Virus record (IMG/VR): IMGVR_UViG_3300041964_000076
Location: 1,498-65,497 of that record
Reading direction: 5' to 3' (one strand)
Origin: a virus
DNA length: 64,000 bases
The number at the start of each line of letters is the position of its first letter. Positions within the stretch are counted from its first letter, which is position 1. The position numbers and the translations under genes are program-made. Below the pieces are notes generated by a model. It saw nothing but the letters and a program-made list of their open reading frames with translations. It was not told where the DNA came from and searched no databases. Below are positions 13,314 to 43,380 of this stretch, one piece after another.

Positions 13314-14579
13314 ATGACTTTTAGCGCTTTCGGTCAACTCCGCTCCATTCCCACGCCCGTGATAACCCTGCCTGATGGGGACACCATTTACTTCATCAGC
13401 ACAGGTGGAGTTGATGGCAATATCTATCCCGTTTCTTTCCAAGAAGAGGAACGGGAAAAGCAGGCACAAGTAACGATGCTGCTGTTCCAATCGTCGCGCA
13501 ATCTGGCAAGCGATCGCGGCATCACGCCTGAGCTTGCCCTCGATCAAATGATGGCGCGAGATGGTGAAACCATCAACCCACTCAGCTATCTCGATGAAGT
13601 AGCAGGTAAAAACTATCTGCGACTGGTTTCCGAGAGCGCCAAGCTGAAGCTAGAAATGGTTGCCAACCTGATCCGGCATCGCGTTGCGTTTCACATCGTT
13701 GTCTCTCAACCCTGCAAAGCCAAGTCGAAGCAGTTGTTTATCAAGTGCCCCTGGTTCCTAGAGAAGCGTGCGATCGAGGTGGGTCAGTGCTTCCAATTCC
13801 CATCCTTCAAAGTACAGATCGTAGAACCGTACGATCCTGAATCTGAGTCGATCGTAGTGACAGCGATCGGCGGAACTCTCGAACCGGGTGCCGTTGGCTT
13901 TTTGCTGAAGGCAGACAACAAGACCTATGCGATGGGCGATCCGAGCTGGTCAGCCGAAGAAACCCAATCGCTGACGCTGGTTAACGCTGACGGGTCAAAA
14001 TCGCAGATTGATCAAATTTACGACTTTTACCTAAGCGAGTCGGGCAAGCTGCCTGAAGCAGAAGCCGAAAGCGGAGGGAAACGAATTAGCCTCGACGAGC
14101 GAGAAGAAAGGCTTCGAGAGTGGCTCCGGTCAAAGCTTATTGACTGGGACGAACTCTACTGGAGAATCCAACTCAGTGGATGTAGAGATCAACGGTTCAG
14201 CGCTGAAAACTTTGGAGACTGCCCTAGCTGGTTAGTGCTTCCAATGTGTTGAGCAAATCAGCAAGCGGGAACGGCAAAACGCGAACGTGATGGCAAAAGT
14301 CACTCGATCGGCTGGAGTGGACTCTTCAATGGTTTTGGTGGCAAGGATAGCCCGAAAACCGAATGGTCTGAACTCTTGCCGTTTCCGATGGATGATGCGC
14401 TGGCGAATGACAAGCTCAGAATCAGCCAAGCAACGGCTGTTATTTTTGTTCGCTTGCACCGCAAAGGCTTGATTCCACCACACGTTACAGGGGCACTCAC
14501 CCCTAATCGACGAAATCGAATCTCTCACTGGCAGCAAACTCTGATCGTAGGTGTGAAGTGGCAGCAGGCGTTTCTCTAG
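13314..14579 (+). CDS. Tail assembly chaperone G/GT-like
   Basis: Between tail tube and tape measure; contains GGGAAAC slippery heptamer. Confidence 0.55.
14076..14082 (+). other. Candidate programmed -1 frameshift site (G GGA AAC)
   Basis: X XXY YYZ heptamer in the chaperone gene; one frame gives an S/T-rich short tail ending at a TAG, the other the DWDELYW T-like frame. Confidence 0.5.
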
Positions 14580-17500
14580 GGTCACTTTATTTAGAGCTTG
14601 GACTCAGCACAGGCGACTACGATCGAGCGCTGTCGGCGGCGAAGTCTGCTGCCATTGGTGTGGGCAGAGATATTGAAAAAAGTCTCAAACTCAAGCCAAC
14701 GGTTGACCACGCTGAACTTAAAAAGCTCAATCAACATCTGGACTTAAAGCAAAAGCACGTTGCCCAGGTTAATAGTTATTTTCGCTCTAACCCGCTTACG
14801 CCCAGAGTAGACACAAGCGAGGTTGACGCAGCCTCATCAAAGCTCAAAGCACTTAAAGCCAACAACGGTGGCACTATTCGCGTTGCTGTCTCTCAAGCCG
14901 TAACAGGTGTAGCAGTGGTTCAAGCAATGGAGTAGAGAGAGCGATCAATGCCTTACCCGATCGCATTGCCAAAGCCATCAAGCCCGGTGCGTTGGGGCAA
15001 GCTGCGGGCAGCATTGGTCGCGCTGTGTCTAGTACGGTTGGTTCGCTTGCAGGTAATGTGCTGTCCATCCCCGCAAATCTGGCAGCAGAAGCCGGAAAGG
15101 GTCTTTTGTATGGCATCACACAGGAAGTCTCTAAAAATCTAGGGGGAGGGCTGTCTACTGCCCTAGAACGTGCAGCATCCACCTCGATCGGCTCGACTCG
15201 ACTGCTAGGCGATAAGCTAGGCGGGCAACTCGGCAGCATGGTCGTTGAGAGCTTTAGCGATCGCCTGAGCTTGCTGACAGAAGTTGCCGAAAAAGCGGTA
15301 GAAGGCATCTCTGATCAGAAGCTAAAGAAAAAACTGCAAGAGACGATCGCTGATGTGAAAGCCGCGCCACAAGCGATCGCTTCGCAAACACAGGCGGCGA
15401 TCGGCAGTGAGGCAATTGTACAAGAGGGATTGTACCAAAGAGGTCAGCAGCGAGAGGCGAACAAATCTAGAACTCCGCTTGTTAGAGAGCAGGCAGTAGA
15501 GGAATGGAGGAGTGCCGTAGTTGTTTCAGACAAACTCGCAGGGGCTAGGACTGAAAGAATCAAAGCGCAAGCCGTTGCTGCAACTCGTCAGGTAGCTAGT
15601 GCTACCAAAGCTCTTAGCAAAATTGATTCTCTGACTCAAGACAAATTTGGTCTTTCTGCATCTGACTTTAACTTAAAAGCTGCACCAATCTTGCAGCAAA
15701 GGAAGCGTAGTCAATTTGATTTAGCGCTAACACAAAATCAAATTGGCACAACACAGGCAAGCCTTCAATCAGACACAGAAGGCTTGCCAAAACTAGAAGC
15801 CTTGCAGAAACGAGCGACTAAAGCTGGCGACACTGGCTTAGCTGATCAATTAGCTAACGAGGTTTCAAACGCAAATTTACGTGTACAAGAAAACACAAAA
15901 AAACTAAAGGCACTTAGCGCCAAGCAAGCAGTTCAAAATGACAAACTTGCAGAATACGACGCTTCAATCAGCGAAACTTTTGGGCAGTCTGCTGAAGAAG
16001 TTATAAGATACAGCGCTTCACTGTCAAAGGCTCAACAAAAAGCGATTGCAGGAAAGCAAAAGCTTGGGGGCGCTAAACAGCAAATGCAAATAGCCAATAT
16101 TGCTGCACAAAAAAAAGCGCAAAAATTCTTACAATTCAAAGCAGTAGCATCGCCTGATCAGCCACAGCAATACGAAGAGATTGCCCGCACGCTTTACGGT
16201 CAAGAGTTTGATACTGAAAAACTACCTCAGATGGTGGTTGCTGATGCCAGCCTCAAGCAATCGGGCGCGGTCAGCCAGTATGACCCGTTGCGAAACGCGA
16301 TCGAGGTCACAACTGAAATGTACGAACAGGTGAAGGCGGGCACGCTCACACCGGAACAAATTACCGTACTCAGTGAAGAATTAGCCCATGCCAGAGATTT
16401 TGATTTTGGTTCCTATCAAGGCATTCAGGCAGCACGACAAAATCGCACGGTGGGAGAAACTACGGCACCCACACCGGAAGAGTTCAGTGAGATAGCGCCA
16501 AATCTGGGTTTATATGGCGAAGATCGACGTGCCCTAGAGTTGAGTGCCAAAACTGAAGCGTTGCGGAATACTCAAGCCTATCTGCAAAGACAAAAGCAAG
16601 GTAAAGGCTTTAGCAATGCTTCAGTTTTTGCTACTGGCAAAGACTTTTTTCAAAATAAAGAACAGAGTTAAACGCTCGGTTGGCTGGCTTTCAGGCGATG
16701 GCGGCGAAGCTGGGCGGGAACGTCGATAAAGTGGTCGAAACTTATAAAGAAGTGTTCGACAAAATTAAAAGTGAATTTAATGAACTTGCTGATCAAGCGG
16801 TCGCTGATGCCGCTACAGGTTCATTAGATGAAGCCAAGCTTGCAGACTACTCGAAGCGTCGGGAAGCCTTAGGCAGTCAACTACAAACGGTTGAGGGCAA
16901 GTTAACAGAACGAATTGCTAATTATAAGGTAGAGCCACCACCCGCACCAGTCGCAACCCCAGAAATGGGTCAACTTTTGCAAATGCCTTTGGCAATGCAG
17001 AGGCAACCTGAAATGGTAGAAGTTGCCACTGCTAAACCTGTAACGCCTGAAATAAAACGTGCGATCGCTCCAGCACCGACACAGGTTAAAACGCCTGCTG
17101 AAAGCGTTAAACAAGCGGCTTCCAGCGCAGGGCAAGTGGCTCGATCGACCATTGAAGCAGCGCAAAAGGCGAGTGCTACTGTTCAGCCAGCGCAAGTTGA
17201 TATTGGCAACGCACTCAACCAGGCAAAAGAGGTTTCGAGTAAGTTTTCTCAAGCCTACACCGCTCTCAAACAAGCGGTTAAAGCGGGCGATTTGACCAAG
17301 GCTGAAGCGTTCCTGGGTGTCATCCAAGCCAACGCAGAACGAGCTAAGGCAGAGGCTAAGACGGCTTACGCAGCGATGAAAGACCAGGGTGCAAGTCCTG
17401 GCGAACTATCGCAAGCTTCAAGTCGTATCGGTCAAATCAGCAAAGCAGAAAAGCTCGCTCAACAGCAAGTCGCTAAACTTCGCAAGCAGCAAGCTAAGGC

Positions 17501-20500
17501 GATCGATGATGCGTCAGGTGCAGGGCTTAAGGCAGCGTCACTGGCACCCATGAAAGGTACAGCAGCAGTCGCAGCAGTGCCCCAATTAGCCAAGTTAAAA
17601 GAGCGCATTCAGACGCGTGTTGCCGTTAGCAACGATGCCAAAGCTTCAGGCGATGACTTAAAGCTCAAGCGCTGAATGTGGCTGGCATCTCTCGCAGCCT
17701 GAACAGCAAGCGGCAACAGATGCTAGAGCAGGTTGAGCAGCAAATCGGTAACGCGATCGATGCGCTCACGCTCACTCTGCAAAATCAGCCCGACCTGATT
17801 GACAATGCCAAAGTGAACCGCACGTTACAGCGGCTCAATGATATGACCGAACGCTTACTCGATGAGCGGACTGAAATCATTGATGATGTTTTTGAAACTG
17901 AGATGCGGCGGGCAAATGATGAGTTGCTAGCGATTGGAGCAAAGGCGCAGCAGAAAGTAGATAAAGCTCCCTGACGTTGGCTTGTTGGCAGACAGAGCGA
18001 TCGACAACCAAACGCAAGACCAGTCTCAAAAAGTCATCCGCGAGAATGAACCTGAGATCAGACAAAATCGCCGCAAAGCCTATCAGATGGAGCGCGAAGG
18101 TGGGGCAGTCGTTCAAGAACGGTTAAAAGTTCTCCCACCGTCAGAAGTGCAAGGCTTTGGTAGTGGGCTACTGAAGCAGGCAAAAAGCACTGTTAGCTGG
18201 CATCAATCAAGACATGAATACCGCTGTCCAAAAGCGGGTTGCTGTCTTGCTCACTGATGCTAAATCGCTATCCAATGACATTGAAACATCGCGCATTGTT
18301 GCCAAGGGGGAAGGCGACAAACAGCAAGCGAAAGCGTTAGGCAAGGTGGGCGGGCAAGCATCTAGCGCGATCGCGAAAGGCGATGCGATTCTGGCTAAAC
18401 CTCAAGCAAAGTTACGGGCAAGGATCTGGCTGAACTTAAAGCGGTTGAGCAAGCGCTCAAGAAAGTATACGCACAGGTCGATCGACCCTTGCCACCTGAC
18501 GCTGGTGGGTTTCGGCGGATTGGCTGCCAATGCGGGCGGTTTGCTCAATACGTTAAAGGGTCTGGGGCTTGGCTTTGCTGCTTTCCAGGGCTTGCAAGCG
18601 GCTGGGACTTTTCTCAAAGACTTCACCATGCGGTCTTTGGAAGCCGCTATGACGGTCGATCGGCTCAGAGTCGCTATGGATTACGCAGCAGGGGGAGCGG
18701 CTAAAGGTGGTGACGATTGGAAGTATGTGCAAAAAACGGTAGAAGACCTGAACACGCCTTTAGCGCAGTCACGCGAAGGTTTCAAACAACTAAGCGCTGC
18801 CACCAAGGGCACAAATGTGGACGGGGAAACAACCAGAAAGCTTAACACTGGTATTTCGCAAGCCTCTGTCGCTCTAGGAATGTCACCAGAACAGCAAGAA
18901 CGTGCTAACACCGCTATATCACAAATTGCGCAAAAAGGAAAGGCCCAAGCGGAGGAGTTAAGGGGTCAACTTTCAGAAACTGGCATTTCTTTCCAGTTGG
19001 TTGCCGACTCGATGGGCTTGACGACTTCCGAATTAAACAAGCAGTTGGAAACAGGCAGCGTACTTGCTGAAGATCTGCTACCTAAGCTTGCTGACAAACT
19101 ACAGCAAGAGTTTGGAGCGTCAGCGGTCAATGCCGCAGGCAACGCTCAGGGCGCACTCAACAAATTTAATAACTCTGTACTGACCACGCAAGAATCATTC
19201 GGCAAAATGATTCAGCCTGCACAGGTAGCGATTCTTAACACCTTGTCAGCCGTTCTTAAACCTTTGGGTGAAAACATTCAGTTAGTAGCGCTGATTGTCG
19301 GCGCTTTAACGGCTAGTTTCGCTGTTTTTGGCGTAGGGGCACTTGGTTCTATTGGTGTAGTGTCTACAGCGTGGAAAACAGCAACACTGGCAGCAGCAGC
19401 GGGCGGGAAGATGCTGCTAGCCTCAATGGGACCCATCGCTGCCGCCTTTGTGGCGCTTTACGCCACAATCGAAGTCGGGAAAAATGTCTTGACTCGCTTC
19501 ACCCCCTCTGACTTTGGCAAAGGTGTGATTGAGTCCTCTAACAAGATCGAAGAGAGTCTCACCAGAATTGCCAATAAAGCCGCGATCGCTCGTGGAGAGA
19601 TCAGTCAGATTACACCACCTAAGCGCCAATCGTCTGGCTGGATTGATGATCTTCAGGTGAAGTCAGATGAGTTTTTCAGTGGTGCAGCTAGCAAGGTTGG
19701 TATTAAGTGGCAGAACACCAACACAGCCGCAGAGGATCAAACCAAAAAAGATATAGAAGCGACTCAGAAGGCGGGCGAAACCGCTAAAAAGTTAGCCACG
19801 CAATTTGACAAAGAGTCCCTAGTCAACTCCCTGAATCAAACCAAGCAACGCGATGAAGACTTGAAGCGCTTAGGCTACAAAAAACAGGCATTGCAGGGTG
19901 CATTGACTCCAGACAAGCAGGCGATCGAGAAAGTTGATGTTGAAATTGCTGCGAAAACAGGCGATCGCAAAAAGGCGGCTGAAACTTTCAGCGATCGCTA
20001 TGGCGCTGTTTCTAGCGCCCTGAAAAATTACCAGGAGCAACTAGCGAAAGTTGACACTCTTGAAGTAGATGACAGCGTCAAAGAACAACTCAAAAAGCCT
20101 TTGCAAGAGTCGGTCACAGCGCTGAAAACTGCCAAAGAGGAGATGGATGGACTGCAAAAGTCGGTCGGCACAGTAGTCGATCCAACACAAAAACTGCTGT
20201 CAGCGTTTGAAGGAATTAACACAGCCCTAGAAGAAACAAGGCGTAAAGCCGATGCTGCTTTTGCTCAACGCACCTTAAAAATTAATACGGATCAACTGAC
20301 TGGGTTTAACAATGATATTGATGCTGGCGGCAAAGCAAATGTAGCTAAAGCGGAAGCAGAACGCGATCGACTCTCAGCCCAAGTTTCCGGCTCTCAAACT
20401 GCTATTAGCAAAACAAAAGAGCAGTTAAGTGATCCGATGGTGCAAGATATGCTGAAGTCGGTTACAACCACTTCAGGCGCAAGCATTACACCCGATTCAT

Positions 20501-23317
20501 CGATCGCCCAAATTGAAGACGCAAAAAAACGTCTTAGCGACAAAGACTCTGGTAAGAAAGACGTATTAGACCAACTCAAAGCGTACCGCGAACAGCGTGA
20601 TAAGTTGCCGGAACTGCAAGGGCAATTAGCAGGTTCTAAACTTCAGGTGAAGGAGGCAGGGCAGCAGCTAGTACTGACGCAGTTAGGACGGCAAACCGCT
20701 GATGATGAGAGCAAGGTCAAACGGACGGAAACCGATCGCAATGCCAAACTCAGGAGTCAACAGTCAGCGGTCAATGTCAAGCGATCGAAGAACCTTTTCT
20801 ACTCTGATGCTGATGCGGGTATTGCTGAAGCCGACCTGGGTATCAGACAGGCGGAATCACAGCGCACGTCTGCAACTACCAGAGAAGGCAATGTAGGGGC
20901 TAGCCTGAGGCGGATCAAGGAGTCATTTGATGCAGGCAAAATTAGCAAGGAGGAGTACGTTCGCCAAGAGCGCGAGCTGGGCGATCAGTTGGTGGAAGCG
21001 CGATCGAAATCGGCAGAGGCAGAAGCGCAAATTGAAGAGGCAAGAGCCAAGAAGTTTGAAGCCGTCAACCGTCGGCGTATCGAGAAGGTGCAAGAGTTAA
21101 ACGCTGATGAGGAATCCATACTCAAACGGCGCGAGACTTTAGCCAATGCCGGATTTAGTGCCAAGCAAGCCAGTCTGAGCATGGCAAAAGCAAGAACACG
21201 TTTTACAGTGAGGCTGATGCAGGAGTCGCTGAAGCTGGGCTGGGCGTTCAACGTGCTGCCAGCCAACAGCAGTTTGCAGGCGATCGCGCTGACTTGGTAG
21301 ACAAGCAGCTACAACGAGTACGGCAACTTTATAAGCAAGGTGCCATGTCTGCGTCAGAGTTCCACAAACAGGAACGCGACTTGATTGATCAGGCGACGGA
21401 CGCGAGAGCCAAAGGGACTGAAGCTGCTGCTGCCTAGAGGAGGCTTACGCCCGTAGAATTGAAGCCGTCAATCGTCAGCGGATTGAAAAAATCCAAGAGA
21501 TGAATGCTGATGAGGAGTCGATCCTCAAACGGCGCGAAAGCGTGGCGAATGCCAAATTCGTGGCACAGCAAGCGGGTCTGAGCATGGCAAAAGCCGAAGA
21601 ACTCTTTCTTTAGCGAAACCGAAGCCGGGGTTGCTGATGCTGATATTGGGCGTTCAGCGTGCTGTGAGTCAGCAACACAGTTGCAGCGATCGCACTGGAC
21701 TCCTTGAGAAGCAACTGCAACGAGAGCAGCAACTCTACAAACAAGGGGCAATGAGTGCGTCAGAGTTCCGCAAAAAAGAGCGCGATTTAGTAGACCAAAT
21801 TACAGAGGCACGCACTAAAGGGACGGAAGCGGCGGCGGCTCTAGAGGAGGCCGTATGCTCGTAAGGTTGAAGCGGCTAACCGTCAGAAGCTTGATCAGAT
21901 TGAACTGCTAAAGAAGAAGGCAGAAGCGGGCATTCAGCTTAAGTCCACTGACCAACAAACAGCGCTACAAACCAGCTTGCTGAGTAGCCCTGCGGCGGGC
22001 GAGCAAGAGCAGTCACAGGTAGCCCGATCGATCATCTTGATTGAGCAATCAGCTTCTACGGCTCGGATGGCGTTGAAGCAAAACGAGCTAGCACAGACGA
22101 AGCAACTGACAGCAGAGGGCGTGATCAGCGCCAAAGATGCGATCGAGAAAGAAATGCAACTCACTCAAGAACTGAGTGATATGAGACTGCAAGCGGCTCA
22201 ACGTGAAGTGCAGATGGCGCAAATGGTCAAGGACAGTCGCGCTAAATTGTTGACCGAATTGGCACGACTAGAGAATGAGCAGATCGATCGCTCCAAACAA
22301 CTACTTGATTCTCAGGCATCGCTTGCCAAGGCACAATCTGACCTGTCGATCGCCCGTAGTTCAACCCAACTGAATACCACCGATCGCGCCTTTGGGTTGA
22401 GAGAACGGCTTGAAACGGATAAAAATCTAAACCCTGAAGTGCGGGCAACGATCGAACGGCAGTTAGGGCAGTCGGGCTTTGGCGGGATGGATTCTACAGG
22501 CATCCTCAAACAAAGAGCGGCAATCGAGAATGATATTGCTGCCAAACAGGTAGCAGCACGTGAGACAGAGTTTGACTTTGCCCGCAAATCACTAGAAATT
22601 GATTTACGGAAACAGGAGATTGCCAACAAAACGCTGGCGATCGAGGCTCAGAAATACAAGCTAGACAGCGATCGCGCCAAGCTCCAAGCGATCAAGGATT
22701 ACAGCACGGCTCAGGCATCCGGCGACGAGTCAGGGATGCGGATGGCGGGCATGAGCCTTGATACTGCTGCCAATATGAGTAAGCTGGCTGACGCTCAACT
22801 GGCAGCCGCTCAAGAGAATATGGGCGTACAGAAACAAATTGCCGAAAACTCGCGCATTCAGCTTACTTTGAGCCAAGAAAAGATTCGCGAAGAGTTTGCA
22901 GGGCAAGACAGTATCAGGCGGCAAAACAATGAACTGAGCATCATTGAGCAAGCGGTAAAAGCCAAAACCCCTGCGAGAGCTTTGGGTGGACCCGTTAACG
23001 CTAGTCAGCCCTATCTCGTCGGCGAACGTGGACCCGAATTGTTCGTGCCTAAAGCAGGTGGGCAAATTTACAATGCCGATGATACTGCTAAAGTTTTCAG
23101 CGCCTCTGCTGCCACACCAACGATCGGGGGTAGCAGTAGTGGCTTCAGTGGGATGAATGGCAGTAGCGTCGATGCCAAGCTCGACAAGCTCATTAACGTA
23201 ATTGGAGCGGCTTTGGGTCGCCCACACCTCACAGTCAGCAGTCCTCAACCTGTCAACGATGCCGCTCGTATCTACTCAGAAATTAGTGCTCAACAAGTCT
23301 CTAACGCGAATATATAG
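14558..23317 (+). CDS. Tail tape measure protein, about 2900 aa when frames are joined
   Basis: Tape-measure domain (ISQIAQKGKAQAEELRGQLSE) at about 18650-19200; Ala/Gln-rich coiled coils; C-terminal GGPV...YLVGERGPELFVP; several frameshifts. Confidence 0.9.
20660..21900 (+). repeat. About 400-bp degenerate tandem coding repeat in the tape measure gene (about 3 copies)
   Basis: GCCGTCAA-starting units at 21061 and 21464, related unit at 21872; shared GCTGATGAGGA...CTCAAACGGCGCGA...CTGAGCATGGCAAAAGC. Confidence 0.8.
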
Positions 23318-23543: not shown

Positions 23544-24049
23544 TGGCAATCAATTACCTTAGCTTTTCCATAGCAGGCATTACCATTCCCATCTATGCGG
23601 CGACGGGTGAGATTGTCTTTCACAAACAAGATAATTTCCCACGGCTGCGAGCGGATGCACCAGGCGTTGAGCGCAGTGCTTACAATACACCCATCAAATA
23701 TGGTGGCTTTCTGCCAGAACCGCACATCTGGACGGTGAAAGTTTTAGCACCGATCGCGCTTCAGCCCGTTGTGCAAGCCATGTATGACATCCATAACGAC
23801 CTGTTCACAAAGCGGCAACCAGCGGAAATTCGGCTGATTGATGCTTACCAGATGTTTAATGAACTAGGCGATCGCACTCGCGCTGTAGCACCTGCACCGT
23901 TTGATGCTGTGACCACCAATGCCTATGGACTGACTGAGTATTTTGCTCAGTTTGATGTGTGGTTCTCAAAGCGTCCCGAATTTACCCTCGAAGGGGGCAG
24001 CGTGATTATTGACTTAGCCTTTGAAGAGTATAAGGTCGTGCCTGCCTGA
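23543..24049 (+). CDS. Putative distal tail (Dit-like) protein
   Basis: Position right after the tape measure; TGATG coupling. Confidence 0.5.
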   Translation: MAINYLSFSIAGITIPIYAATGEIVFHKQDNFPRLRADAPGVERSAYNTPIKYGGFLPEPHIWTVKVLAPIALQPVVQAMYDIHNDLFTKRQPAEIRLIDAYQMFNELGDRTRAVAPAPFDAVTTNAYGLTEYFAQFDVWFSKRPEFTLEGGSVIIDLAFEEYKVVPA

Positions 24050-25836
24050 TGGGAATTAACGCCACTGCCAGCAAGATCAGAATTTTAGTCGGTCCCGACG
24101 CGATCGACTTTAGCGAAGCGATCGTTAGTTTTGTGGCGGGTTTTGATAAGCGCGATCGTTCTGGGCAGTGCAAAGTCAGCGGGACACTGGTGCTGACAGC
24201 GCTGGATAACAACCTGGCTTTACTCAACCCTAGATTGAATTACGACATTGGCGGGGGCATTAACCCGCGGGCGCTGTGGAGTCGTGGTCAATTCATTCGC
24301 ATTCAGTCTACTGATGCGAGTGGCACCTTAATCGATCATCGGTTTAGTAAGCTTTATATCCTCAAAGAACCACTACCACCAAAATCACCCCAACCTCAAG
24401 ACGCGCGGATCACGTTAGAACTTGGCTGCGAGTTAAAGCTACGCGATTTTGCAGCACCGAATCCTAATCCCGTACTGGCGTGCGACCCTGAAGATCCAAC
24501 ACTTTCTCATGTGGGTATTGAGCAAAGCCCTAGCGAAGTGATCCGTAAATTACTGGTAAAAGCAGGGGTGACGGGCACCTGGGAAGGCGTGATTGAAAAC
24601 TATCCATTCTCCTACCCTGTTTCTAACGACAGTGGCAGCTATTTAGCTGTGGCAGGGGAAGTCGCGTTTGCACGGTTCTACTCATTGGTGCAAAAGCGAT
24701 CGACGGCAGGCAATATCACCGCTGTAGACTATCGCGCTACTGCCGATGCCACACCACTGCTGACAGTGACGATCGGGGAAGACGAGGCTGAATATGAACC
24801 CGTCTCAGGGCAAGAAACACCGTGCGAAGCGTTGCACTGTGAAGGCTCTACTTATGATGTGACAGATACATGGCAGGATGTGACGTTCTGCAAGGTTTTC
24901 TACGCCCCTGGCTCTAACTTGGTCACACGGTTAACGTGTACGAGAGACGCACAGAGCGCTACTGAGATCTTGCATGAGGTGACAGAGTTAGAACCACGCG
25001 GACTGTTAGCGCCAGACGATTTCCCTGGCAGTGATTCGCTCATCTTCAGTCGTCGCACAACGAATATCAAAACCTACGAGGCTAATGTTTGCGGCAACGG
25101 CAAGCTGCTGCAAGAAGAGACGATCATCGTCCGTCCGTTTCGTGTCGCCGTCAGCGAGTTCTGGAGTGGGCTGAGTACGGCTCAGAAAGCCAATTATGCT
25201 GCTTTTAGTCCGTCAATCGACACTCGCACGATCGTTTATTACAGCTACACCGAAAAAGAAGTAATCAAAGAGATTGAAAGCCGTACTAGCCGGATGCTGG
25301 CAAGTGTACTACCCAGTGTCGATCCAACGACCGCAGGCGTAATTTTTCAAGTGCCTGCTGCTAGCGAAATTCAGACCTACCGTGAAATCTGCCCAGGACA
25401 ATGGGAGTACACGCAAGCATCAGCTTCACCACTGGTTGATGTTTACCCTGATGCGGTGCCTGATAGCGCGTCAGTCAGCGAGAAAATTAGGTTAGCAACA
25501 ACTGACCCAATCTCAACTGTTTCCGCTAGTGGGCAGAACAATCCGCCTGCTACCGAGAGAAGACCACAGCGCTATGCCCGTAACGAACGGCAGTTAGAGG
25601 GTGTGGCACTCTTTGGTAGCTTTGCAGGCGCGAATCAACAAGATCGTAAGCGCTTCGTTTCAATCCCCTGGATGGTCAGCAATGAGCAGGCAAGCGCGAT
25701 CGCTCAACACTTAGGCGCTGAACTAATTGGACGCAGACAAGGGGCACAAATCCTTTTAGCCTTAACTGATGTTTGGCTGACCAATGAGAACCCTTATCCA
25801 GTCATTCACGTCAGAGAAGCCGCGTCTGGTGTTTGA
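24049..25836 (+). CDS. Baseplate hub/tail tip protein (probably continues by frameshift into the LamG region)
   Basis: Large ORF after Dit; the frame can be extended through 25860-26280. Confidence 0.55.
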   Translation: MGINATASKIRILVGPDAIDFSEAIVSFVAGFDKRDRSGQCKVSGTLVLTALDNNLALLNPRLNYDIGGGINPRALWSRGQFIRIQSTDASGTLIDHRFSKLYILKEPLPPKSPQPQDARITLELGCELKLRDFAAPNPNPVLACDPEDPTLSHVGIEQSPSEVIRKLLVKAGVTGTWEGVIENYPFSYPVSNDSGSYLAVAGEVAFARFYSLVQKRSTAGNITAVDYRATADATPLLTVTIGEDEAEYEPVSGQETPCEALHCEGSTYDVTDTWQDVTFCKVFYAPGSNLVTRLTCTRDAQSATEILHEVTELEPRGLLAPDDFPGSDSLIFSRRTTNIKTYEANVCGNGKLLQEETIIVRPFRVAVSEFWSGLSTAQKANYAAFSPSIDTRTIVYYSYTEKEVIKEIESRTSRMLASVLPSVDPTTAGVIFQVPAASEIQTYREICPGQWEYTQASASPLVDVYPDAVPDSASVSEKIRLATTDPISTVSASGQNNPPATERRPQRYARNERQLEGVALFGSFAGANQQDRKRFVSIPWMVSNEQASAIAQHLGAELIGRRQGAQILLALTDVWLTNENPYPVIHVREAASGV

Positions 25837-26005
25837 GGGTGGGGAAATGACGGTGGTGCATGACACGATCGTTTATCAGGTTGATGCACTCAGTTTTGAG
25901 CACGATCGCACTCGCGCTACGGTCGGGTTGTGAGTTGATCTGGCTGGCAACCATTCCCGCAGGGCGCAACAGTGCCAGTGCTGCCTTATGTGCCGACCGT
26001 CATGC

Positions 26006-26300
26006 GATCGGGTGTGGCACCTGTACTCAGTCTGAGCGGTGTTGCAGGTGAGTTTGGATCACTCGATCACGCGATCGGGTGTGGCACCATTAATCAAACT
26101 GTTTGCTCGAGCGGAACAGGGGCAACAACGATCATCCGCTCGGGCGTAGCACCTGTACTCAATCTCTCTGCTTTGAGTGGTGACTATACCTTGCCTGTCA
26201 TTCCGCTCGGTGTAGCACCTGTACTCAGATTGAGTGCTTTAGGTGGTAGTCGAATGCTTCAGTCGAGCGATCGGGTGTAGCACCAGTGATGAATTTGAGC
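26006..26300 (+). repeat. Five about 66-bp spaced coding repeats (RSGVAPV-like)
   Basis: CGATCGGGTGT(G/A)GCACC variants at about 26006, 26072, 26136, 26204, 26269. Confidence 0.75.
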
Positions 26301-27017
26301 ACTTTGACGGCGCAGATTGGTGCGCTGCCTTCCGGTGCTCAACCTTCCGCCTACTGGAACCTAATCGCAAACGGTAACACTGCTGTGGGTACACCCAACC
26401 TCACGGCTGGGTCAGGGGTATCCTTCGCCAGTGGCACCCATGCAGCGCTTAATGGAAGCACTAGCGCCACGCTTGCAGGGGCAGATACGGCAGACATTAG
26501 CGTGGGTAACGAAGCCTTCACGATCGGCGCTTGGGTTTATCTCAATAGCACAGCCTCTCTTCTTGCCTTCATGCAAAAAGGCTTGGGCGGGTCGGGCAGC
26601 AATTATACGGGTGCTGTGTTTGAGTATCTTGTTTACTACGATCAGAGCGCCTTACGCTTTAGGGGTGCCTTGTATGACACGACTTCGCTTAATAGCTCCG
26701 GAGTTGCGATTGTTACGGCTTCAACCTTTGGCGCTCCAGCGATCAACACTTGGTATTACCTTGTGTTCTACTACAAGCCTGGATCGCCCAATACGATTGG
26801 GCTGAGCGTGAACAATGGTGCGTTTAATACGCTCACGACCACAATCAATCATGTTGACACGGCTACCAACATGACGCTTGGTTATCGTTCTAGTGATAAC
26901 TTCAATCTCAATGGCAGGATGAGGTATGCAGGATTCTGGAAAGATCTACCAGCCGATGCTGGAGGAAGTATCGATCTTGCCTATTACTACAACGGGGGAG
27001 CTGGTCGTCCCTTGTAG
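26286..27017 (+). CDS. LamG/concanavalin A-like domain tail protein (candidate receptor-binding)
   Basis: AFTIGAWVY...INTWYYLVF...GLSVNNG...LNGRMRYAGFW LamG-like pattern. Confidence 0.8.
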   Translation: MMNLSTLTAQIGALPSGAQPSAYWNLIANGNTAVGTPNLTAGSGVSFASGTHAALNGSTSATLAGADTADISVGNEAFTIGAWVYLNSTASLLAFMQKGLGGSGSNYTGAVFEYLVYYDQSALRFRGALYDTTSLNSSGVAIVTASTFGAPAINTWYYLVFYYKPGSPNTIGLSVNNGAFNTLTTTINHVDTATNMTLGYRSSDNFNLNGRMRYAGFWKDLPADAGGSIDLAYYYNGGAGRPL

Positions 27018-28093
27018 CGGACAAAATGACGCTCTACTGTCCAGTAGAACAACCAGCCAACAACAACGGCAAAAACCATCGCAAGAGCAAAAAGCATAAG
27101 GGGGTTGCGGTAGCCGATCGTCATGGCAATCGCTTTCCAGCAAGCGAAAACAGGATAATGCACCAAGTAAAGCGAGTAGCTAAACGACCCTAGCCAAATG
27201 AGCCAACGTGAACCAAAAAAGCCTTCTAGCCAAGTTGGTTGCGTTCTGTCGACGCTCAGTTGAAAAAGGCAGGCTAACAACAATCCCGTCACCAGATCAA
27301 ATTCCCAATATCGATTAAGGTGATCTCCAAAGAACAGCAAGCCGCTCAACTCGTTGCGATCGCCCATGATGGGAAAAGCCCAGAACAGGCACAGCAAAAG
27401 GGTAGCAGCAAACCAAGCAAAAGCTTTTGGCTCTGGCAATGCTTTTTGTGACGCGAGAAAGCTAAGTGCAAAGATGCAAAAAAACCAAAGCCCTAAAAGC
27501 CATCCGTTAAAGTACCAATTCAGCCAGCAAGCCAAACCGCTGACAGCAATGGCGAACAAAAGTACAGCTTGAGATCCGAAGCGGCGGTGCAACCATACCA
27601 GCACAGGGAAGAGCAGATAAATTCTAAGTTCTAGTGCCACTGTCCAAAGTGGACCTGTCTCCAGGGTTTCATCAACAAAGACATCATTAAGTAACAGTAA
27701 GTTGAATAGCATTTGTCTCTGGTCTGGTAGCCAGTCGATACCCAAAACCTGAAACCGCAAGGCGGCAAGCGCGATCGCCAATAGCGTCAGCGCATAAACA
27801 GGGGGCACAATGCGCCAGAAGCGTCGTTTGAGGAACGGTAGCACCAGGAATGGTCGATCGGGTTTGACTTGTAAACCAAGCGTGAAGCCACTGATAGCGA
27901 TAAAAATAGTGACAGCCAAATGCCCGTAACCCAGTACGTGAATGAGTGGGTAAACAAAGCCAGTCGGGTTGCGTTGTAAGAATGAAGCGCTGGCATGGCA
28001 AGCGGCAACATAGAGAGCGCAAAAGCCGCGTATTCCGTCAAGATAAGGTAGTCTCACAAAAGAAGTCAGAAAGACACCCTCATCATGCCCCAT
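26987..28093 (-). CDS. Acyltransferase family 3 (OafA-like) O-acyltransferase
   Basis: LDGIRGFCALYVAACH, FIAISGF, FLKRRFWRIVP, LWTVALELRIY, LGSFSYSLYLVH; many TM helices. Confidence 0.92.
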   Translation of the reverse strand: MGHDEGVFLTSFVRLPYLDGIRGFCALYVAACHASASFLQRNPTGFVYPLIHVLGYGHLAVTIFIAISGFTLGLQVKPDRPFLVLPFLKRRFWRIVPPVYALTLLAIALAALRFQVLGIDWLPDQRQMLFNLLLLNDVFVDETLETGPLWTVALELRIYLLFPVLVWLHRRFGSQAVLLFAIAVSGLACWLNWYFNGWLLGLWFFCIFALSFLASQKALPEPKAFAWFAATLLLCLFWAFPIMGDRNELSGLLFFGDHLNRYWEFDLVTGLLLACLFQLSVDRTQPTWLEGFFGSRWLIWLGSFSYSLYLVHYPVFACWKAIAMTIGYRNPLMLFALAMVFAVVVGWLFYWTVERHFVRYKGRPAPPL

Positions 28094-28765: not shown

Positions 28766-28909
28766 ATGAGTACAGATGTCACAGCACTTTTAGAAGCGAG
28801 ATCGCAGGCACGGTCAGAGCGCAACTGGGCAGAAGCCGATCGCTTGCGTAAACTGATTGAGGATCAGGGCTATCAAGTCGTCGATCGCAAGACGGCACCA
28901 GCGAACTGA
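28766..28909 (+). CDS. Stand-alone CysRS C-terminal (anticodon-binding)-like domain
   Basis: MSTDVTALLEARSQARSERNWAEADRLRKLIEDQGYQVVDRK, and DGTSELK after a 1-nt shift; below the ORF-track size cutoff. Confidence 0.65.
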   Translation: MSTDVTALLEARSQARSERNWAEADRLRKLIEDQGYQVVDRKTAPAN

Positions 28910-29219
28910 AGGGAGGGCAAACACCGTCAGTCGTGAGCGATCGACCGCATCAAGACTCAAACCACAGTCAGGGTGTTGACGCCGATGGTAGTCTTTGGGG
29001 CTATGCTCTCAGCACATGGATAGTGCCAAAAAGCGATCGGTGAGAGCTTGCCGGATCAATGATGTCAGAAGCCAATCAATAGACACTATCAGAGCGATCG
29101 CACAACATCGCGCCAACTGTCGGGCTATGTGCCTTCTTTGCGGGACGCAGCCACCGATACAGTATTGATTCAATACACTTGACAGGTGGCACAATATAGG
29201 CATTGTCACTACTCTTCCC

Positions 29220-29870
29220 ATGCCTCCAGTTATTCCCAATCGCCTCTCATTGGATTTTCTCACAGCTTACCTGCCTAATGCCACGACGATCGACGCTCAC
29301 CTGTTGACTGCTGCCCCGGCTGAAACAGCAAGCACAGGAGCCGATTTAAGCATTGTCTCTGGCGGTAACTACACTTCTAAAAACTTTACCCTCACTGCAC
29401 CGTCTGCGGATGGCTCAGGGGCAAAGACAGTGCCCAGCGTTACCTCACTGAACTGGACAGGGCTATTCGCTGGCGCGGCAACTGCGATCACTCACATCGG
29501 CTTTACCAAACGTGCAGGGGGTAGTTATGCCTCTTCTGATCCTTTTGTTGATGCGATCGAACTAACGGCGGACACAACGATCGCGTCAGTCACAACCGCA
29601 ACCGGGTCGCCCATATCAGCACGACAAACAGCTTTGCAGCGCTGACTGCTGGCAAACCATCACGGGCACTGGTATCCCCTCAGAAACAACGATTCTGGCA
29701 ATTCCAACCAGTACAACGATCGTCCTATCCAAACGTGCAACGGCATCGGGCACCGTCACGGTTACGATTAAAACCCCGTCATCCTACACGCCACCAACGT
29801 CTTCTAATGGTGCGTCTGACTTCGCTTTTACGTTTCCTGCTTACCTACTCAAACTTGATGATTACCTGTA
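29220..29870 (+). CDS. Putative tail structural protein (frameshifted)
   Basis: Thr/Ala/Ser-rich, LLTAAP...GGNY motif typical of phage tail proteins. Confidence 0.5.
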
Positions 29871-29871
29871 G

Positions 29872-36190: not shown

Positions 36191-37985
36191 TGTTGGGGAA
36201 CTACCACTTGGTTCTTGCCCTGCCTTTTTGCCTGCTCATAGCCGCATCAGCAGGCAGCCATCAGTTTCAGCTAGTGTCCTGCCACTCGTTGGATACATTG
36301 CAACCCCGATCGATGCGTCACCTGCCTAAGCATGGAGCCTCCGTAAGCCAGGTTGATTGCTGAGATTGCCTGTCGCAGTGCCTCAGCTTTGGCGATCGCG
36401 CTTGCCTCTGTGCAATCAACCAAAAGCACCACAATTTCATCGCCCCCTTTGCGTACTGGAACGTCCCCGTTACGGCAGTTATCTAGAAGAACACGCCCGA
36501 TATTCTGAAGCACAAAATCGCCAGCGGCATCGGATACTTCCTTGTTATACTGCCCGAAGCCGTCAGCATCAACGAATAAAAGCGCTAGCTGATAGCTATT
36601 GCGATCAGCTTTAGCGACTTCACGCGGGAACGTTTCGGCTAGATAAATATTGTTGAAAAGTCCAGTCAGATGATCACGAACTAGCATTTCCTGAGCTGCT
36701 TTGCGATCGCTCAGTGCGCTCAACGCCTGCCCTAACTGTTGCCCCACAATCTCAGCAATCTCGATTTCGACATTGGTCAAGGGACGATCGCGCCTCAAGT
36801 GCAACACGCCTAGAGTCTGTGTCTCGCGTCCGTAGAGAACAGAGGCACGCATAGATGGGAACCGCTCACAGGTTTGTGTAGATGTTCGCAGACCATTTCA
36901 GTTTCTTGATCCTCGCAGTAATGCACTTTCGCTTCTTTGAGCGATCGGCATTCATTCGGCATGAATCCCGCTTTGCTGCCTGCATCACTGCCCCAACTAA
37001 AGCGCCGCTCTGCGTACGATCGTGAGTTATCAATCAGAAAAGTTCGCCTGCCAGATAGGGGAAGAGTTTGCGACCCGCAACCCGCACAACATCGCCTGCC
37101 TCTTGGTAGGAGTCGCAAAGGTTGAGGCGTACTGATAACTCTGAGATCAAGTTGAGGTTCAAAACCATCAACGAGAGTCGGGTTTCTTTCTCGCGTAACT
37201 TTTCGTTGGCAGCAATCAATTTGCCTTGGGCGATTTGTTGATCGGTCACATCCAGACTAAAACCGCCGATGCATAACTCGTTGGTGTGTGGATCTGTAAA
37301 CCGAAACTTGCGGGTGTAATATTCTCGCGGCTGCCCTGTGGCATCTGGCACTACCTCAATAAATTCTGCCTCGCCGTTTTCCGCCACTAGGCGATCGTTC
37401 TGCAAGATTCTCGCTGCCTGTTCCTCATCTTTGAGAAAGTTGGTGTCATTCAGCCCAATCACTGACGATGCGGGTCGTGCGATCGCACGTTCACACGCCG
37501 GTTGAGCCAGATCATGGTCGAGTCACTAGCCCGCTTGCAGTAGATGGGGTAGGGCGATGAATCAATGAATAGATCACGAATGAGCTGATGCTGCTCAAGC
37601 CCTGCCTGATTCGCCTGAGATGATTGAACGAGCGCGATCGCCTGTGCTGCGAAGGGGGCAACCAGAGTGCTGCTACTAGAGAGACGATCGCGGTTACTGC
37701 CTTAGCTCGCTACAGACAGGCTGTACAGGGGCAAGAAGACGGTAATGACCTCGGCAATGTGCGAGATGCCACAGCAGACGATAAAGGCGCAAAACAGCCC
37801 AATGATTTGATAGAAGCGAAGGGGAACGCCTGCGAGTGAAACAGTTGCCGTGAGTAGTACAGGAGTGAGAGCGGGATAGCGAAGTAGGCGATCGCAATCA
37901 GCACGTCACTGCCGACTAACGACCAAAGTAGATAGGGATTCCAGTTGAAGCAATAACCGTGAGGCACCCAGGAGAAATGATCCAT
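36180..37985 (-). CDS. Diguanylate cyclase-like sensor: ethylene-binding TM domain, PAS, GAF, GGDEF (frames joined)
   Basis: PHGYCFNW...SDVLIAIAYFAIP; FIVCCGISH (37759-37776); KAVTAIVS; PAS/PAC LDVTDQQ; GAF; DHLTGLFN, RNGD I-site, GGDEI. Confidence 0.85.
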
Positions 37986-38723
37986 TAGCAACCAGCCGTG
38001 GCAGCACCGTACAAATGCCCTTGCACTAACAGTTGTAAGTTTGGAAAATGCCTTGCCAGAGCGATCGCCCTCGCTTCAATTGCTCCCGATTCCAGATGCT
38101 CTAGCACAATCGGTATGTCACGCCGATGAGCGATCGCCATTGCCCCAAACACAACGCATTCGCGCCAATGGTCGCGGCCATCAGTCGCACGATCGAGCCG
38201 TCAACTTCAAGAAATCAGGCTCGATCGCCAAGATCGCTGGAATGTTGGCATAACCTACGCCAAAGTCGTCAATGCCGATTGGTAAGCGTAGCTCACGCAG
38301 GGCACTCAAAACCTGCGTCGAAGGTAACATTAGTGCCTCTGTTTCGGTCACTTCACAGTATAAAAGCCGTGGATTGATGCCGCTCTTGTTGAGTTGCTCC
38401 GTCATGAAAGACGGAAACTGCAAGTCATTCAAACTTTGCCCACTCAGGTTGATTGCGTGCGGTATAGACGAGTGCTGCAAACGCTCCAGAGTGCCAACTA
38501 CAGCAGCGCGATCGATCGCCTTTAGCTGCTCAGGAGTTACGTCATTGATGAATCTTGCCGCCGGGATTATCTCGCCAGACGGCTCCCTCAGTCTGACTAA
38601 AACCTCAAACACGTAAGGGATTTCAACCCCAATTTTGAAAATGGGCTGACAGTGAAAGATCAGACTACCAGAGTCGATCGCCTGATCAATGCGCGATCGC
38701 CATTGCATGGATGTGTTCGGCAC
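37985..38723 (-). CDS. Stand-alone EAL c-di-GMP phosphodiesterase (C-terminus across frameshifts)
   Basis: QPI, EVLVR, INLS, EVTE, IDDFGVGY, K-DG, VLEHLE, VQGHLY; its TAA overlaps the DGC ATG. Confidence 0.9.
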
Positions 38724-41361: not shown

Positions 41362-41934
41362 TTAACGGCGCTTTGGTGGCTTGAAGAAGTCTTTCTTTTT
41401 AATCTTCACCATGCGCCCGTCTGGATGGTGCCACACGATGCCTTCAATCTCTCGATCGTTCAAGTATTCTTTAAGCCCTTCAAAATCTGTAGGTACAGCT
41501 TCTTTGATGATCACGCCGTCATGTGGCACTAGCACATGGCTAACAAACTTTTCAGGGTTGCCTTGCACCTTGGGTCCGCACAGTTCATAAGTACCGTTCT
41601 TGAGCGGTTGACTGAAAGCATCAACACCGCGATCGTATGCCTCTCTAAACCATTGATCCTCTTTTCCATCGCCAACGGGTAGCCATCCTGGATGATGCCC
41701 TGTCACTGGATCAGGTTCTTGAGCAGGTTCAAAACCTTCAGGTGGTGTCTTACCTGCTTTTGCGTCGTACCGCTTATACAGTTTACCGTCTCGCATCATG
41801 CAACAAGTGCCATCAAACTTGCGAGTAGCAACGCCTTCGCCTGCCTGTACCCATTCACTGCCTTCTACGACTTCGTTGCAAACTAGGCGATCGCCGTCAT
41901 AGTTACGCTGAAACAAAGAAATGATTTTTTTCAT
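41362..41934 (-). CDS. RNA ligase, DUF5565/RLIG1-like nucleotidyltransferase
   Basis: ATRKFDGT (motif I KxDG), TYELCGP, IEGIVW, MVKIKKKDF; own RBS AGGAG before ATG 41934. Confidence 0.75.
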   Translation of the reverse strand: MKKIISLFQRNYDGDRLVCNEVVEGSEWVQAGEGVATRKFDGTCCMMRDGKLYKRYDAKAGKTPPEGFEPAQEPDPVTGHHPGWLPVGDGKEDQWFREAYDRGVDAFSQPLKNGTYELCGPKVQGNPEKFVSHVLVPHDGVIIKEAVPTDFEGLKEYLNDREIEGIVWHHPDGRMVKIKKKDFFKPPKRR

Positions 41935-41944
41935 AATTCTCCTA

Positions 41945-42363
41945 CCTTTTAGAAACACGTTTGACCGTCCTGGCTTTGCGTTTGCGTGCCGGACGCTTAG
42001 AGACTTTTTTGCGGGTATCAACGCCGATCGCAGCCTCTTCACAAACCCTGCCTGATTCCGATTTCCTAACTCTGGGTTCTTAGCATTCCATACCCAATTT
42101 TGTGGGGCGTGCGCCTCTTTGTGATGCTTGAGGCAGAGGGGGAAGCAGTCGATTAAGGGGCGTTCACTACCTGCAATGCTTACCCACTTCCCACCGTCCC
42201 AGACACCGTATCTCACATGATGCACTTGTCTAGCCTTGCATCGGCACAACGTACACTTGCCACCCGTCGCCTGAAATGTGGCAGTGCGTATTGAGTGCCA
42301 ATTAGGGGCGTAACGATGGGGGAAGGCTTGTTTGTGCAAGGCGGTGCGATCGCTGCAACTCAT
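41945..42363 (-). CDS. HNH endonuclease (CxxC...HH...CxxxH)
   Basis: KCTLC...QVHHVRY...PLCLKHHKEAH. Confidence 0.75.
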
Positions 42364-42966: not shown

Positions 42967-43380
42967 TTACACAAACAGTAAGCGAAAAGCCATGTTAACC
43001 ACGTTTACCCAGCTTGGTTCTGTGTTTGCGGGTAGCACGCTTGCGGGCTTTCTTACGGGTGCTAGCGAGGCTTGCAACCGCTCCACAAAGGCGGGTTGAT
43101 TGTGATTACCTAACGCTGGATTCTGCTTGTCCCAAACCCAATTCTGTGGTGCATGGGCGAGAGTGTGGCAAGAGTTGCAGAGCGGAAAGACATCAACTAA
43201 GGGGTGCTCCTTGCCAGCAATCGACTGATAGCGCTTACCGTCCCAAAGCCCATAGCGAGCGTGATGTACTTCTTTAGCTCTACCCGCACAAAGGCAGCAG
43301 CAACCGCCCGTTAATTGCAGTGTCTGCTGTCTGATGCTGCGCCAGTTGGCAGCGTAACGGTGGGGGAAAGATTGACTCAT
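42967..43380 (-). CDS. HNH endonuclease, paralogue of 41945-42363
   Basis: CCLC...EVHHARY...PLCNSCHTLAH. Confidence 0.78.
   Translation of the reverse strand: MSQSFPHRYAANWRSIRQQTLQLTGGCCCLCAGRAKEVHHARYGLWDGKRYQSIAGKEHPLVDVFPLCNSCHTLAHAPQNWVWDKQNPALGNHNQPAFVERLQASLAPVRKPASVLPANTEPSWVNVVNMAFRLLFV

What the first reader, a model, noticed from the sequence alone, without database searches (positions are those of the whole stretch)
28766..28909. Stand-alone CysRS C-terminal-like mini-protein
Seen: LLEARSQARSERNWAEADRLRKLIEDQGYQVVDRK(DGT) closely follows the C-terminal helical anticodon-binding region of cysteinyl-tRNA synthetase (R..AR..K....AD.IRD.L...G..L.D...GT), with no catalytic domain. Inference: a tRNA-binding shield or decoy against tRNA-targeting defences, or a CysRS modulator. 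This fits with the RNA ligase. The true C-terminus is uncertain because of an indel.
Basis: partly seen in the sequence, partly recalled or inferred. Interest (0 to 1): 0.65.

Follow-up and report, generated by a model that had tools for sequence, protein, structure and literature searches.

The report
Phage protein with tRNA-Cys reader domain
A virus of cyanobacteria carries a small accessory gene that joins the anticodon-reading piece of cysteinyl-tRNA synthetase to an unknown domain; the 47-residue 'mini-protein' seen here is only its front third, cut off by single-base errors in this record, and tRNA binding is likely but untested.

Summary
The CysRS likeness is real: 28766-28909 passes the Pfam CysS_C cut-off (32.6 vs 23 bits). 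'Stand-alone mini-protein' is wrong. The record lacks one base at about 28889 and one at about 29018. Related contigs from four samples have both bases and encode an intact 108-aa ortholog; three more distant relatives are 111, 127 and 140 aa. Read through, the gene runs 28766-29168 (134 aa): CysS_C, a linker, then an unknown domain. The record has 26 one-base indels in 12.7 kb, including in tail genes. The family is accessory cargo in the tail module of temperate cyanobacterial phages, one of them a Stenomitos prophage. It is under purifying selection (dN/dS about 0.2-0.4) and keeps all E. coli anticodon-contact residues (R423, R427, W432, D436, R439). Unrelated phages carry the domain in four other non-synthetase layouts, including a true 62-aa stand-alone. 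In one, the genome's only confident tRNA is tRNA-Cys, 0.8 kb away. Best reading (0.5): a non-catalytic cap on the tRNA-Cys anticodon; shield versus sequestration is unresolved. I found no link to the RNA ligase. The scan noted related cases on other DNA (CysS_C-GT2 fusion, another phage CysRS fragment), not this family.

The parts
28766..29168 (+). Full gene read through two one-base deletions: about 134 aa, CysS_C + linker + unknown C-terminal domain
   Evidence: DNA alignment with L001-L005; read-through with N at the breaks; tail matches P0014
28766..28909 (+). The 47-aa ORF of the finding: truncated product of this record; residues 43-47 are out-of-frame
28769..28908 (+). CysRS anticodon-binding domain (PF23493). 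R12, R16, W21, D25, R28, G35, D40, G44 = E. coli R423, R427, W432, D436, R439, G446, D451, G455
   Evidence: contact residues from PMC12684709 and PMC13449415
28888..28891 (+). Break 1: AA where relatives have AAA
29017..29020 (+). Break 2: GG where the close relatives L001-L004 have GGG
28960..29063 (+). Conserved core of the unknown C-terminal domain: DxDGxLW[GS]Y ... CR[IV]ND, invariant in 5 members
   Evidence: no significant Pfam, PHROG, PDB or Atlas match
29106..29141 (+). Optional His/Cys tail, H-x3-C-x3-C(-x2-C), possible metal site; present in the window, P0014 and P0153, absent in P0002 and P0003
29180..29208 (.). Conserved TGAC-N21-GTCA inverted repeat; belongs to the downstream structural gene, not to this gene
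   Evidence: kept in provirus L168, which lacks the CysS_C gene
26987..28093 (-). Neighbouring family-3 acyltransferase moron (context, not shown to be a partner)
29220..29871 (+). Downstream 217-aa structural gene, broken by deletions at 29614 and 29653 in this record

Best explanation
An accessory gene of temperate cyanobacterial phages encodes a 108-140 aa protein whose N-terminal domain was captured from the 3' end of a bacterial cysS gene. SHOWN: the gene structure, domain identity, fold of the N-domain, conserved anticodon contacts, purifying selection and accessory position in the tail module. INFERRED: the N-domain binds the G34-C35-A36 anticodon loop of host tRNA-Cys, with R16/D25/W21 reading G34 as R427/D436/W432 do in E. 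coli. The small C-terminal domain adds affinity, dimerisation or a partner contact, and no aminoacylation occurs. The result is a non-catalytic cap that competes with CysRS and the ribosome for tRNA-Cys. It either throttles Cys-tRNA supply (slightly more likely, since the anticodon is the main identity element) or, if binding is transient, shields the loop from anticodon nucleases.
For: Pfam above cut-off in all members. Eight CysRS-equivalent positions are invariant in all four intact members, and seven in the window's 47-aa ORF, which breaks before the G455 equivalent. N-domain pLDDT about 90 and best structural matches are CysRS, including the tRNA complex 1u0b. dN/dS is 0.18-0.35 in the N-half and 0.26-0.40 in the C-half where not saturated. 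Other phages hold the domain without a catalytic core in four further layouts with the same contacts intact. In phage G007 (98% complete) the only tRNA over the Rfam cut-off is tRNA-Cys(GCA), 0.8 kb downstream of such a gene. A relative of that gene, L222, sits directly upstream of a phage class I synthetase that I read as LeuRS from its motifs. The GCA anticodon is a major CysRS identity element (PMC9976931). A tRNA-Cys(GCA)-targeting toxin exists (VapC4, cited in PMC13273310).
Against: The same residues are conserved in GT2 fusions and in tandem-repeat proteins, so conservation does not prove tRNA-Cys is the ligand. This phage has no tRNA gene. The tRNA-Cys neighbour is one post-hoc case in a different family, and its relative G002 has no tRNA. 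Phage proteins show no clear Cys depletion: 0.84-1.23% against 1.26% in host flank genes, small samples. The C-domain fold is unresolved (pLDDT about 45).
Confidence: 0.5

Rival explanations
1. Address-plus-effector: CysS_C targets tRNA-Cys and the C-terminal domain cuts or modifies it, as a prophage toxin or an anti-superinfection effector.
For: Invariant polar and Cys residues (DxDG, W, Y, CRxND) in the C-domain. It lies in a variable cargo slot.
Against: The core is only about 35-45 aa, with no match to any nuclease or transferase family or fold. It has no invariant His. No antitoxin-like partner is shared across loci.
Confidence: 0.15
2. The domain has become a general guanine or GC-binding module serving glycan-modifying enzymes, here the neighbouring family-3 acyltransferase.
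For: An acyltransferase-3 gene lies 0-3 genes upstream in the window/L001, L005 and L006, as three alleles only 28-39% identical. CysS_C is fused to GT2 in Chloroflexota and Actinomycetota. The stand-alone L207 gene follows a methyltransferase in a tail module.
Against: L167 has no acyltransferase nearby. Orientation and spacing vary. O-acyltransferase morons are common beside tail genes (own knowledge). The L202, L221, L222 and L227 contexts have no glycan genes.
Confidence: 0.15
3. Translational regulator that binds a GCA-containing hairpin just upstream of the next structural gene (anticodon mimicry).
For: A conserved inverted repeat with GCA in the loop follows the stop codon in 4 of 5 lineages, with one A-T/G-C swap; hairpin z -2.5 and -3.8 in two of them.
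Against: Provirus L168/G001 keeps the element but has no CysS_C gene. L167 has the gene but no element. The loop is not a 7-nt anticodon loop, and L168 has an A-C mismatch in the stem.
Confidence: 0.07
4. The 47-aa stand-alone product is real in this phage (natural truncation or a decaying prophage).
For: No reads could be examined. True stand-alone CysS_C proteins exist in other phages (L207; Atlas clusters).
Against: Two one-base losses in homopolymer runs, among 26 one-base indels in 12.7 kb that also break tape-measure and tail genes. The downstream part still encodes the conserved domain under purifying selection. All relatives are intact.
Confidence: 0.07

Closest known systems
C-terminal anticodon-binding domain of bacterial cysteinyl-tRNA synthetase (Pfam PF23493; E. 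coli CysRS residues 403-461, PDB 1U0B/1LI5; also 3SP1, 3TQO, 6UJD)
   Same: Sequence above the Pfam cut-off, same two-helix plus beta-hairpin fold, and R423/R427/W432/D436/R439/D451 equivalents all kept.
   Different: No Rossmann catalytic domain, HIGH/KMSKS motifs or DALR domain. The domain is N-terminal, followed by an unrelated domain, and is phage-borne.
CysS_C-GT2 glycosyltransferase fusions of Chloroflexota and Actinomycetota (e.g. P0130; Atlas clusters)
   Same: N-terminal CysS_C outside a synthetase, with the contact residues kept.
   Different: The partner domain there is a GT-A glycosyltransferase; here it is a 60-90 aa unknown region.
Other uncharacterised phage CysS_C proteins: stand-alone L207 (62 aa) and three mostly viral Atlas clusters of 65-75 aa; L222/L227/L228 (N-terminal CysS_C; UniProt A0A6J5SUU1 may be of this type); L202/L218/L221, L223/L224 and phrog_36975 (C-terminal CysS_C)
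   Same: Phage-encoded, non-catalytic, anticodon contacts kept.
   Different: Different partner regions and genomic contexts. They fall in separate groups in a low-resolution tree, which suggests but does not prove separate captures.
Phage counter-measures to tRNA-targeting defence (nuclease-resistant phage tRNAs, PMC10264068; T4 Rnl1/Pnk repair, own knowledge)
   Same: Same possible purpose if the protein shields tRNA.
   Different: Those replace or repair tRNA. A protein cap built from a synthetase domain was not found in my literature searches.

Membership tests
Cysteinyl-tRNA synthetase | Class I catalytic domain with HIGH/KMSKS and DALR helical domain | tested here: not met
   All members are 108-140 aa; Pfam finds only CysS_C above cut-off
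CysS_C domain (PF23493) | Score above the Pfam gathering cut-off of 23 bits | tested here: met
   32.6 (window), 31.6, 29.2, 27.5, 40.0 bits
CysS_C domain (PF23493) | Anticodon-contact residues R423, R427, W432, D436, R439 | tested here: met
   Aligned to 1LI5; invariant in all 5 members; roles from PMC12684709 and PMC13449415
CysS_C domain (PF23493) | Fold: two helices plus beta-hairpin as in 1U0B | tested here: met
   pLDDT about 90 for residues 1-45; top hits 3sp1 and 1u0b (Foldseek probability 0.9, E not significant; rmsd 1.9 A over 46) and VIA Z 6.8
CysS_C domain (PF23493) | Specific binding of the tRNA-Cys anticodon | not testable with these tools
   Needs a binding assay; no protein-RNA folding is offered
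Stand-alone phage CysS_C mini-proteins (L207 type) | Whole protein is the 50-75 aa domain alone | tested here: not met
   Intact orthologs have a 60-90 aa conserved extension; the short form is a frameshift
CysS_C-GT2 fusion | GT2 domain after CysS_C | tested here: not met
   No GT2 hit, and the proteins are too short
L222/L227/L228 phage family (N-terminal CysS_C) | Homologous C-terminal region | tested here: inconclusive
   HHalign of C-parts: probability 15%, E 0.0018, on an NHS..DG..WG stretch that L227 and L228 lack; separate group in the tree
tRNA-repair module with RLIG1 ligase | Genetic linkage of the gene with the ligase | tested here: inconclusive
   12 kb apart on opposite strands; no RLIG1 match in fetched homolog loci, which are partial

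The most novel reading that the evidence does not exclude
Unrelated phages have repeatedly captured the CysRS anticodon reader and use it as a free-standing cap on tRNA-Cys, a new class of phage translation-control or anti-defence protein. This cyanophage family is one of at least five layouts.
Probability: 0.35. Interest if true: 0.75.

Novelty: new variant of a known kind. Interest (0 to 1): 0.5.

Why it matters
Known phage answers to tRNA-targeting defence are to bring spare tRNAs or to repair cut ones. A protein that grips one tRNA's anticodon with a stolen synthetase domain would be a third route, or a codon-specific brake on host translation. It would also explain why tRNA-Cys readers recur in phages. 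The test is cheap: a 108-127 aa protein, a known structure for the interface, defined point mutants and a cultured lysogen (Phormidium sp. FACHB-592). The case also warns that 'mini-proteins' in this record can be indel artefacts.

Tried and rejected
1) Stand-alone 47-aa protein: rejected. 2) Programmed frameshifting: it would need two shifts, the first site is not a slippery heptamer, and the close relatives simply have the bases. 3) Anticodon-mimic hairpin downstream: looked promising, then failed its control, because L168 keeps it without the gene. 4) Link to the RLIG1 ligase: no evidence. 5) Identity of the C-terminal domain: no significant match in Pfam, PHROGs, PDB sequences, ESM Atlas, Foldseek PDB/BFVD or VIA-align; both AlphaFold models have pLDDT about 45 there (alignments of 3-4 sequences), so the absence means nothing about its fold. 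6) Donor of the domain: unresolved; a 48-column tree with unsettled bootstrap groups the family with two CysRS fragments of unknown origin, and few cyanobacterial CysRS were available. 7) Pattern scans for more members in viral, metagenome and genome contigs returned only CysRS C-termini and GT2 fusions. Searches across cyanobacterial genomes were not possible for a virus record. 9) No tRNA or Rfam RNA near the gene; relaxed ARAGORN calls on the genome are noise. 10) Cys depletion of phage proteins: not clear. 11) Paper searches found no description of this domain in phages; the library lacks most subscription papers. 12) No complex prediction was run, as no protein-protein claim is made.

Full report
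Observation. The ORF 28766-28909 (+) is present and encodes 47 aa. It matches Pfam CysS_C (PF23493) at 32.6 bits against a cut-off of 23, and the C-termini of solved CysRS. The next frame continues with DGTSELKG straight after the point where the CysRS likeness ends.

The short ORF is an artefact. No other protein of 25-83 aa came up, but longer ones did: P0002 (108 aa, 91% identical), P0003 (111 aa), P0014 (140 aa) and P0153 (127 aa). P0002 is on five contigs from ENA, Logan and JGI assemblies, in the same gene order as the window. Aligning the DNA shows the window lacks one A at about 28889 and one G at about 29018, both in three-base runs. Against L001 the window has 26 one-base indels in 12.7 kb. 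The tape measure gene, 2816 aa in L001, is in at least seven pieces, and the 988-aa tail gene is in three. Read through with N at the breaks, the gene ends at 29168 and gives 134 aa whose tail aligns with P0014. The window is nearly 100% identical to L001 up to about 28890 and 82-95% after it. This is either a crossover at the domain boundary or uneven polishing of a long-read consensus.

Setting. The record is a 107,563-base virus contig with 139 copies of the cyanobacterial HIP1 octamer. P0153 lies at the end of the structural module of a prophage in Phormidium sp. FACHB-592 (Stenomitos), whose capsid genes match other families. In all five lineages the gene lies one to four genes downstream of a related tail gene (LamG-type by Pfam in three, by visible sequence likeness in L005 and L167). 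A family-3 acyltransferase is nearby in the window/L001, L005 and L006; its alleles are only 28-39% identical. Provirus G001 has both flanking structural genes (80-85% identical) but fills the slot with a pilin and other cargo, and has no CysS_C gene. The gene is therefore accessory.

Anatomy. Residues 2-48 form the CysRS anticodon-binding domain. Alignment to E. coli CysRS maps R12, R16, W21, D25, R28 and D40 to R423, R427, W432, D436, R439 and D451. G34 of tRNA-Cys contacts R427, D436, W432 and, through water, R423 (PMC12684709). Positions 427/432/436/439 were the ones mutated to change anticodon specificity (PMC13449415). All are invariant in the family. Models give pLDDT about 90 here, and the best structural matches are CysRS. 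After a variable linker comes a conserved core, DxDGxLW[GS]Y ... CR[IV]ND, and in three of five members a His/Cys tail. This part matches nothing significant and is not modelled with confidence. Both halves are under purifying selection, so the whole protein is functional.

The domain is mobile. Searches with it return CysRS C-termini, GT2 fusions and proteins with 2-8 tandem copies, in which the same residues are kept. Pattern scans of IMG/VR found four more phage layouts without a catalytic core: a true 62-aa stand-alone (L207), N-terminal CysS_C (L222, L227; L228 from the phage collection), and two kinds with C-terminal CysS_C (L202/L218/L221; L223/L224). The ESM Atlas lists three mostly viral clusters of 65-75 aa with this domain (scores 0.82-0.85, leads only). 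A 48-column tree keeps these groups apart, but is weakly resolved. In phage G007 the only tRNA above the Rfam cut-off is tRNA-Cys(GCA), 0.8 kb downstream of its CysS_C gene. L222's gene precedes a phage class I synthetase, by motifs a LeuRS. These are single, post-hoc cases, and G002 has no tRNA.

Mechanism. The most likely activity (0.5) is non-catalytic binding of the tRNA-Cys anticodon loop. Because that anticodon is a main identity element for CysRS (PMC9976931), tight binding would slow charging and decoding, and loose binding could shield the loop. A toxin that targets tRNA-Cys(GCA) is known (VapC4, PMC13273310), but I have no evidence of one in this host. Rivals are a tRNA-Cys-directed effector (0.15), a helper of glycan-modifying enzymes (0.15), an mRNA-hairpin regulator (0.07) and a real truncation (0.07). 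The hairpin idea arose from a conserved TGAC-N21-GTCA repeat right after the stop and lost support when L168 proved to keep it without the gene. The RLIG1-type ligase is real but 12 kb away, and nothing ties it to this gene.

Verdict. Known domain, new architecture, uncharacterised. The headline claim (stand-alone) fails at this locus. What remains is a real, selected phage protein family and a recurring capture of the tRNA-Cys reader by phages, which my paper searches did not find described. Interest 0.5.

Noticed in passing
window 14558-23317, 24049-27017, 29220-29871, 36271-37991: Tape measure, tail, 217-aa structural and GGDEF-sensor genes are broken by one-base indels relative to L001; the indels cluster where the record diverges from L001.
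   Followed up: yes
G000:C1 2002-15544 vs 83620-107563: The contig holds large direct and inverted repeats at 75-93% identity, with terminase and portal-region genes up to three times: probably a chimera of related phages.
   Followed up: partly
window 29180-29208; L001 8339, L006 6421, L168 4960: TGAC-N21-GTCA repeat with TTGAC(A/G) and an inner TG-n-CAnnAT, conserved 12-14 nt upstream of the 217-aa gene: candidate operator or promoter of that gene.
   Followed up: partly
L227 5202-5274 (G007:C1:58470-58541): Phage tRNA-Cys(GCA) with G instead of the usual U at position 33, 0.8 kb from a CysS_C gene; the only confident tRNA of a 98% complete 67-kb phage.
   Followed up: partly
L222 1147-2775: Compact 542-aa LeuRS-like class I synthetase in a 185-kb phage record, directly downstream of a CysS_C protein.
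   Followed up: no
L207 616-804 (-): True stand-alone 62-aa CysS_C protein after a methyltransferase at the end of a tail module.
   Followed up: partly
L202 1433-1930, L221 2404-2928, L218 419-829: Phage family with an unknown Trp-rich N-domain (WGxRRV[ST]S motif) and C-terminal CysS_C.
   Followed up: partly
P0004-P0013 and about 60 more hits: Proteins of 120-900 aa made of 2-8 tandem CysS_C domains with the anticodon contacts intact; origin not determined, possibly a multi-repeat RNA-binding family.
   Followed up: no
window 41362-42363 (-): RLIG1-type RNA ligase (last 190 aa) in one frame with an upstream HNH-like part that resembles the ORF at 42967-43380; the fusion may be another indel artefact.
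   Followed up: partly
L235 933-1553 (-): Type IV pilin-like moron occupies the slot after the tail gene in provirus G001.
   Followed up: no
L006 4053-5660 (-): IS605 TnpB and a GIY-YIG gene lie between the acyltransferase and the CysS_C gene.
   Followed up: no
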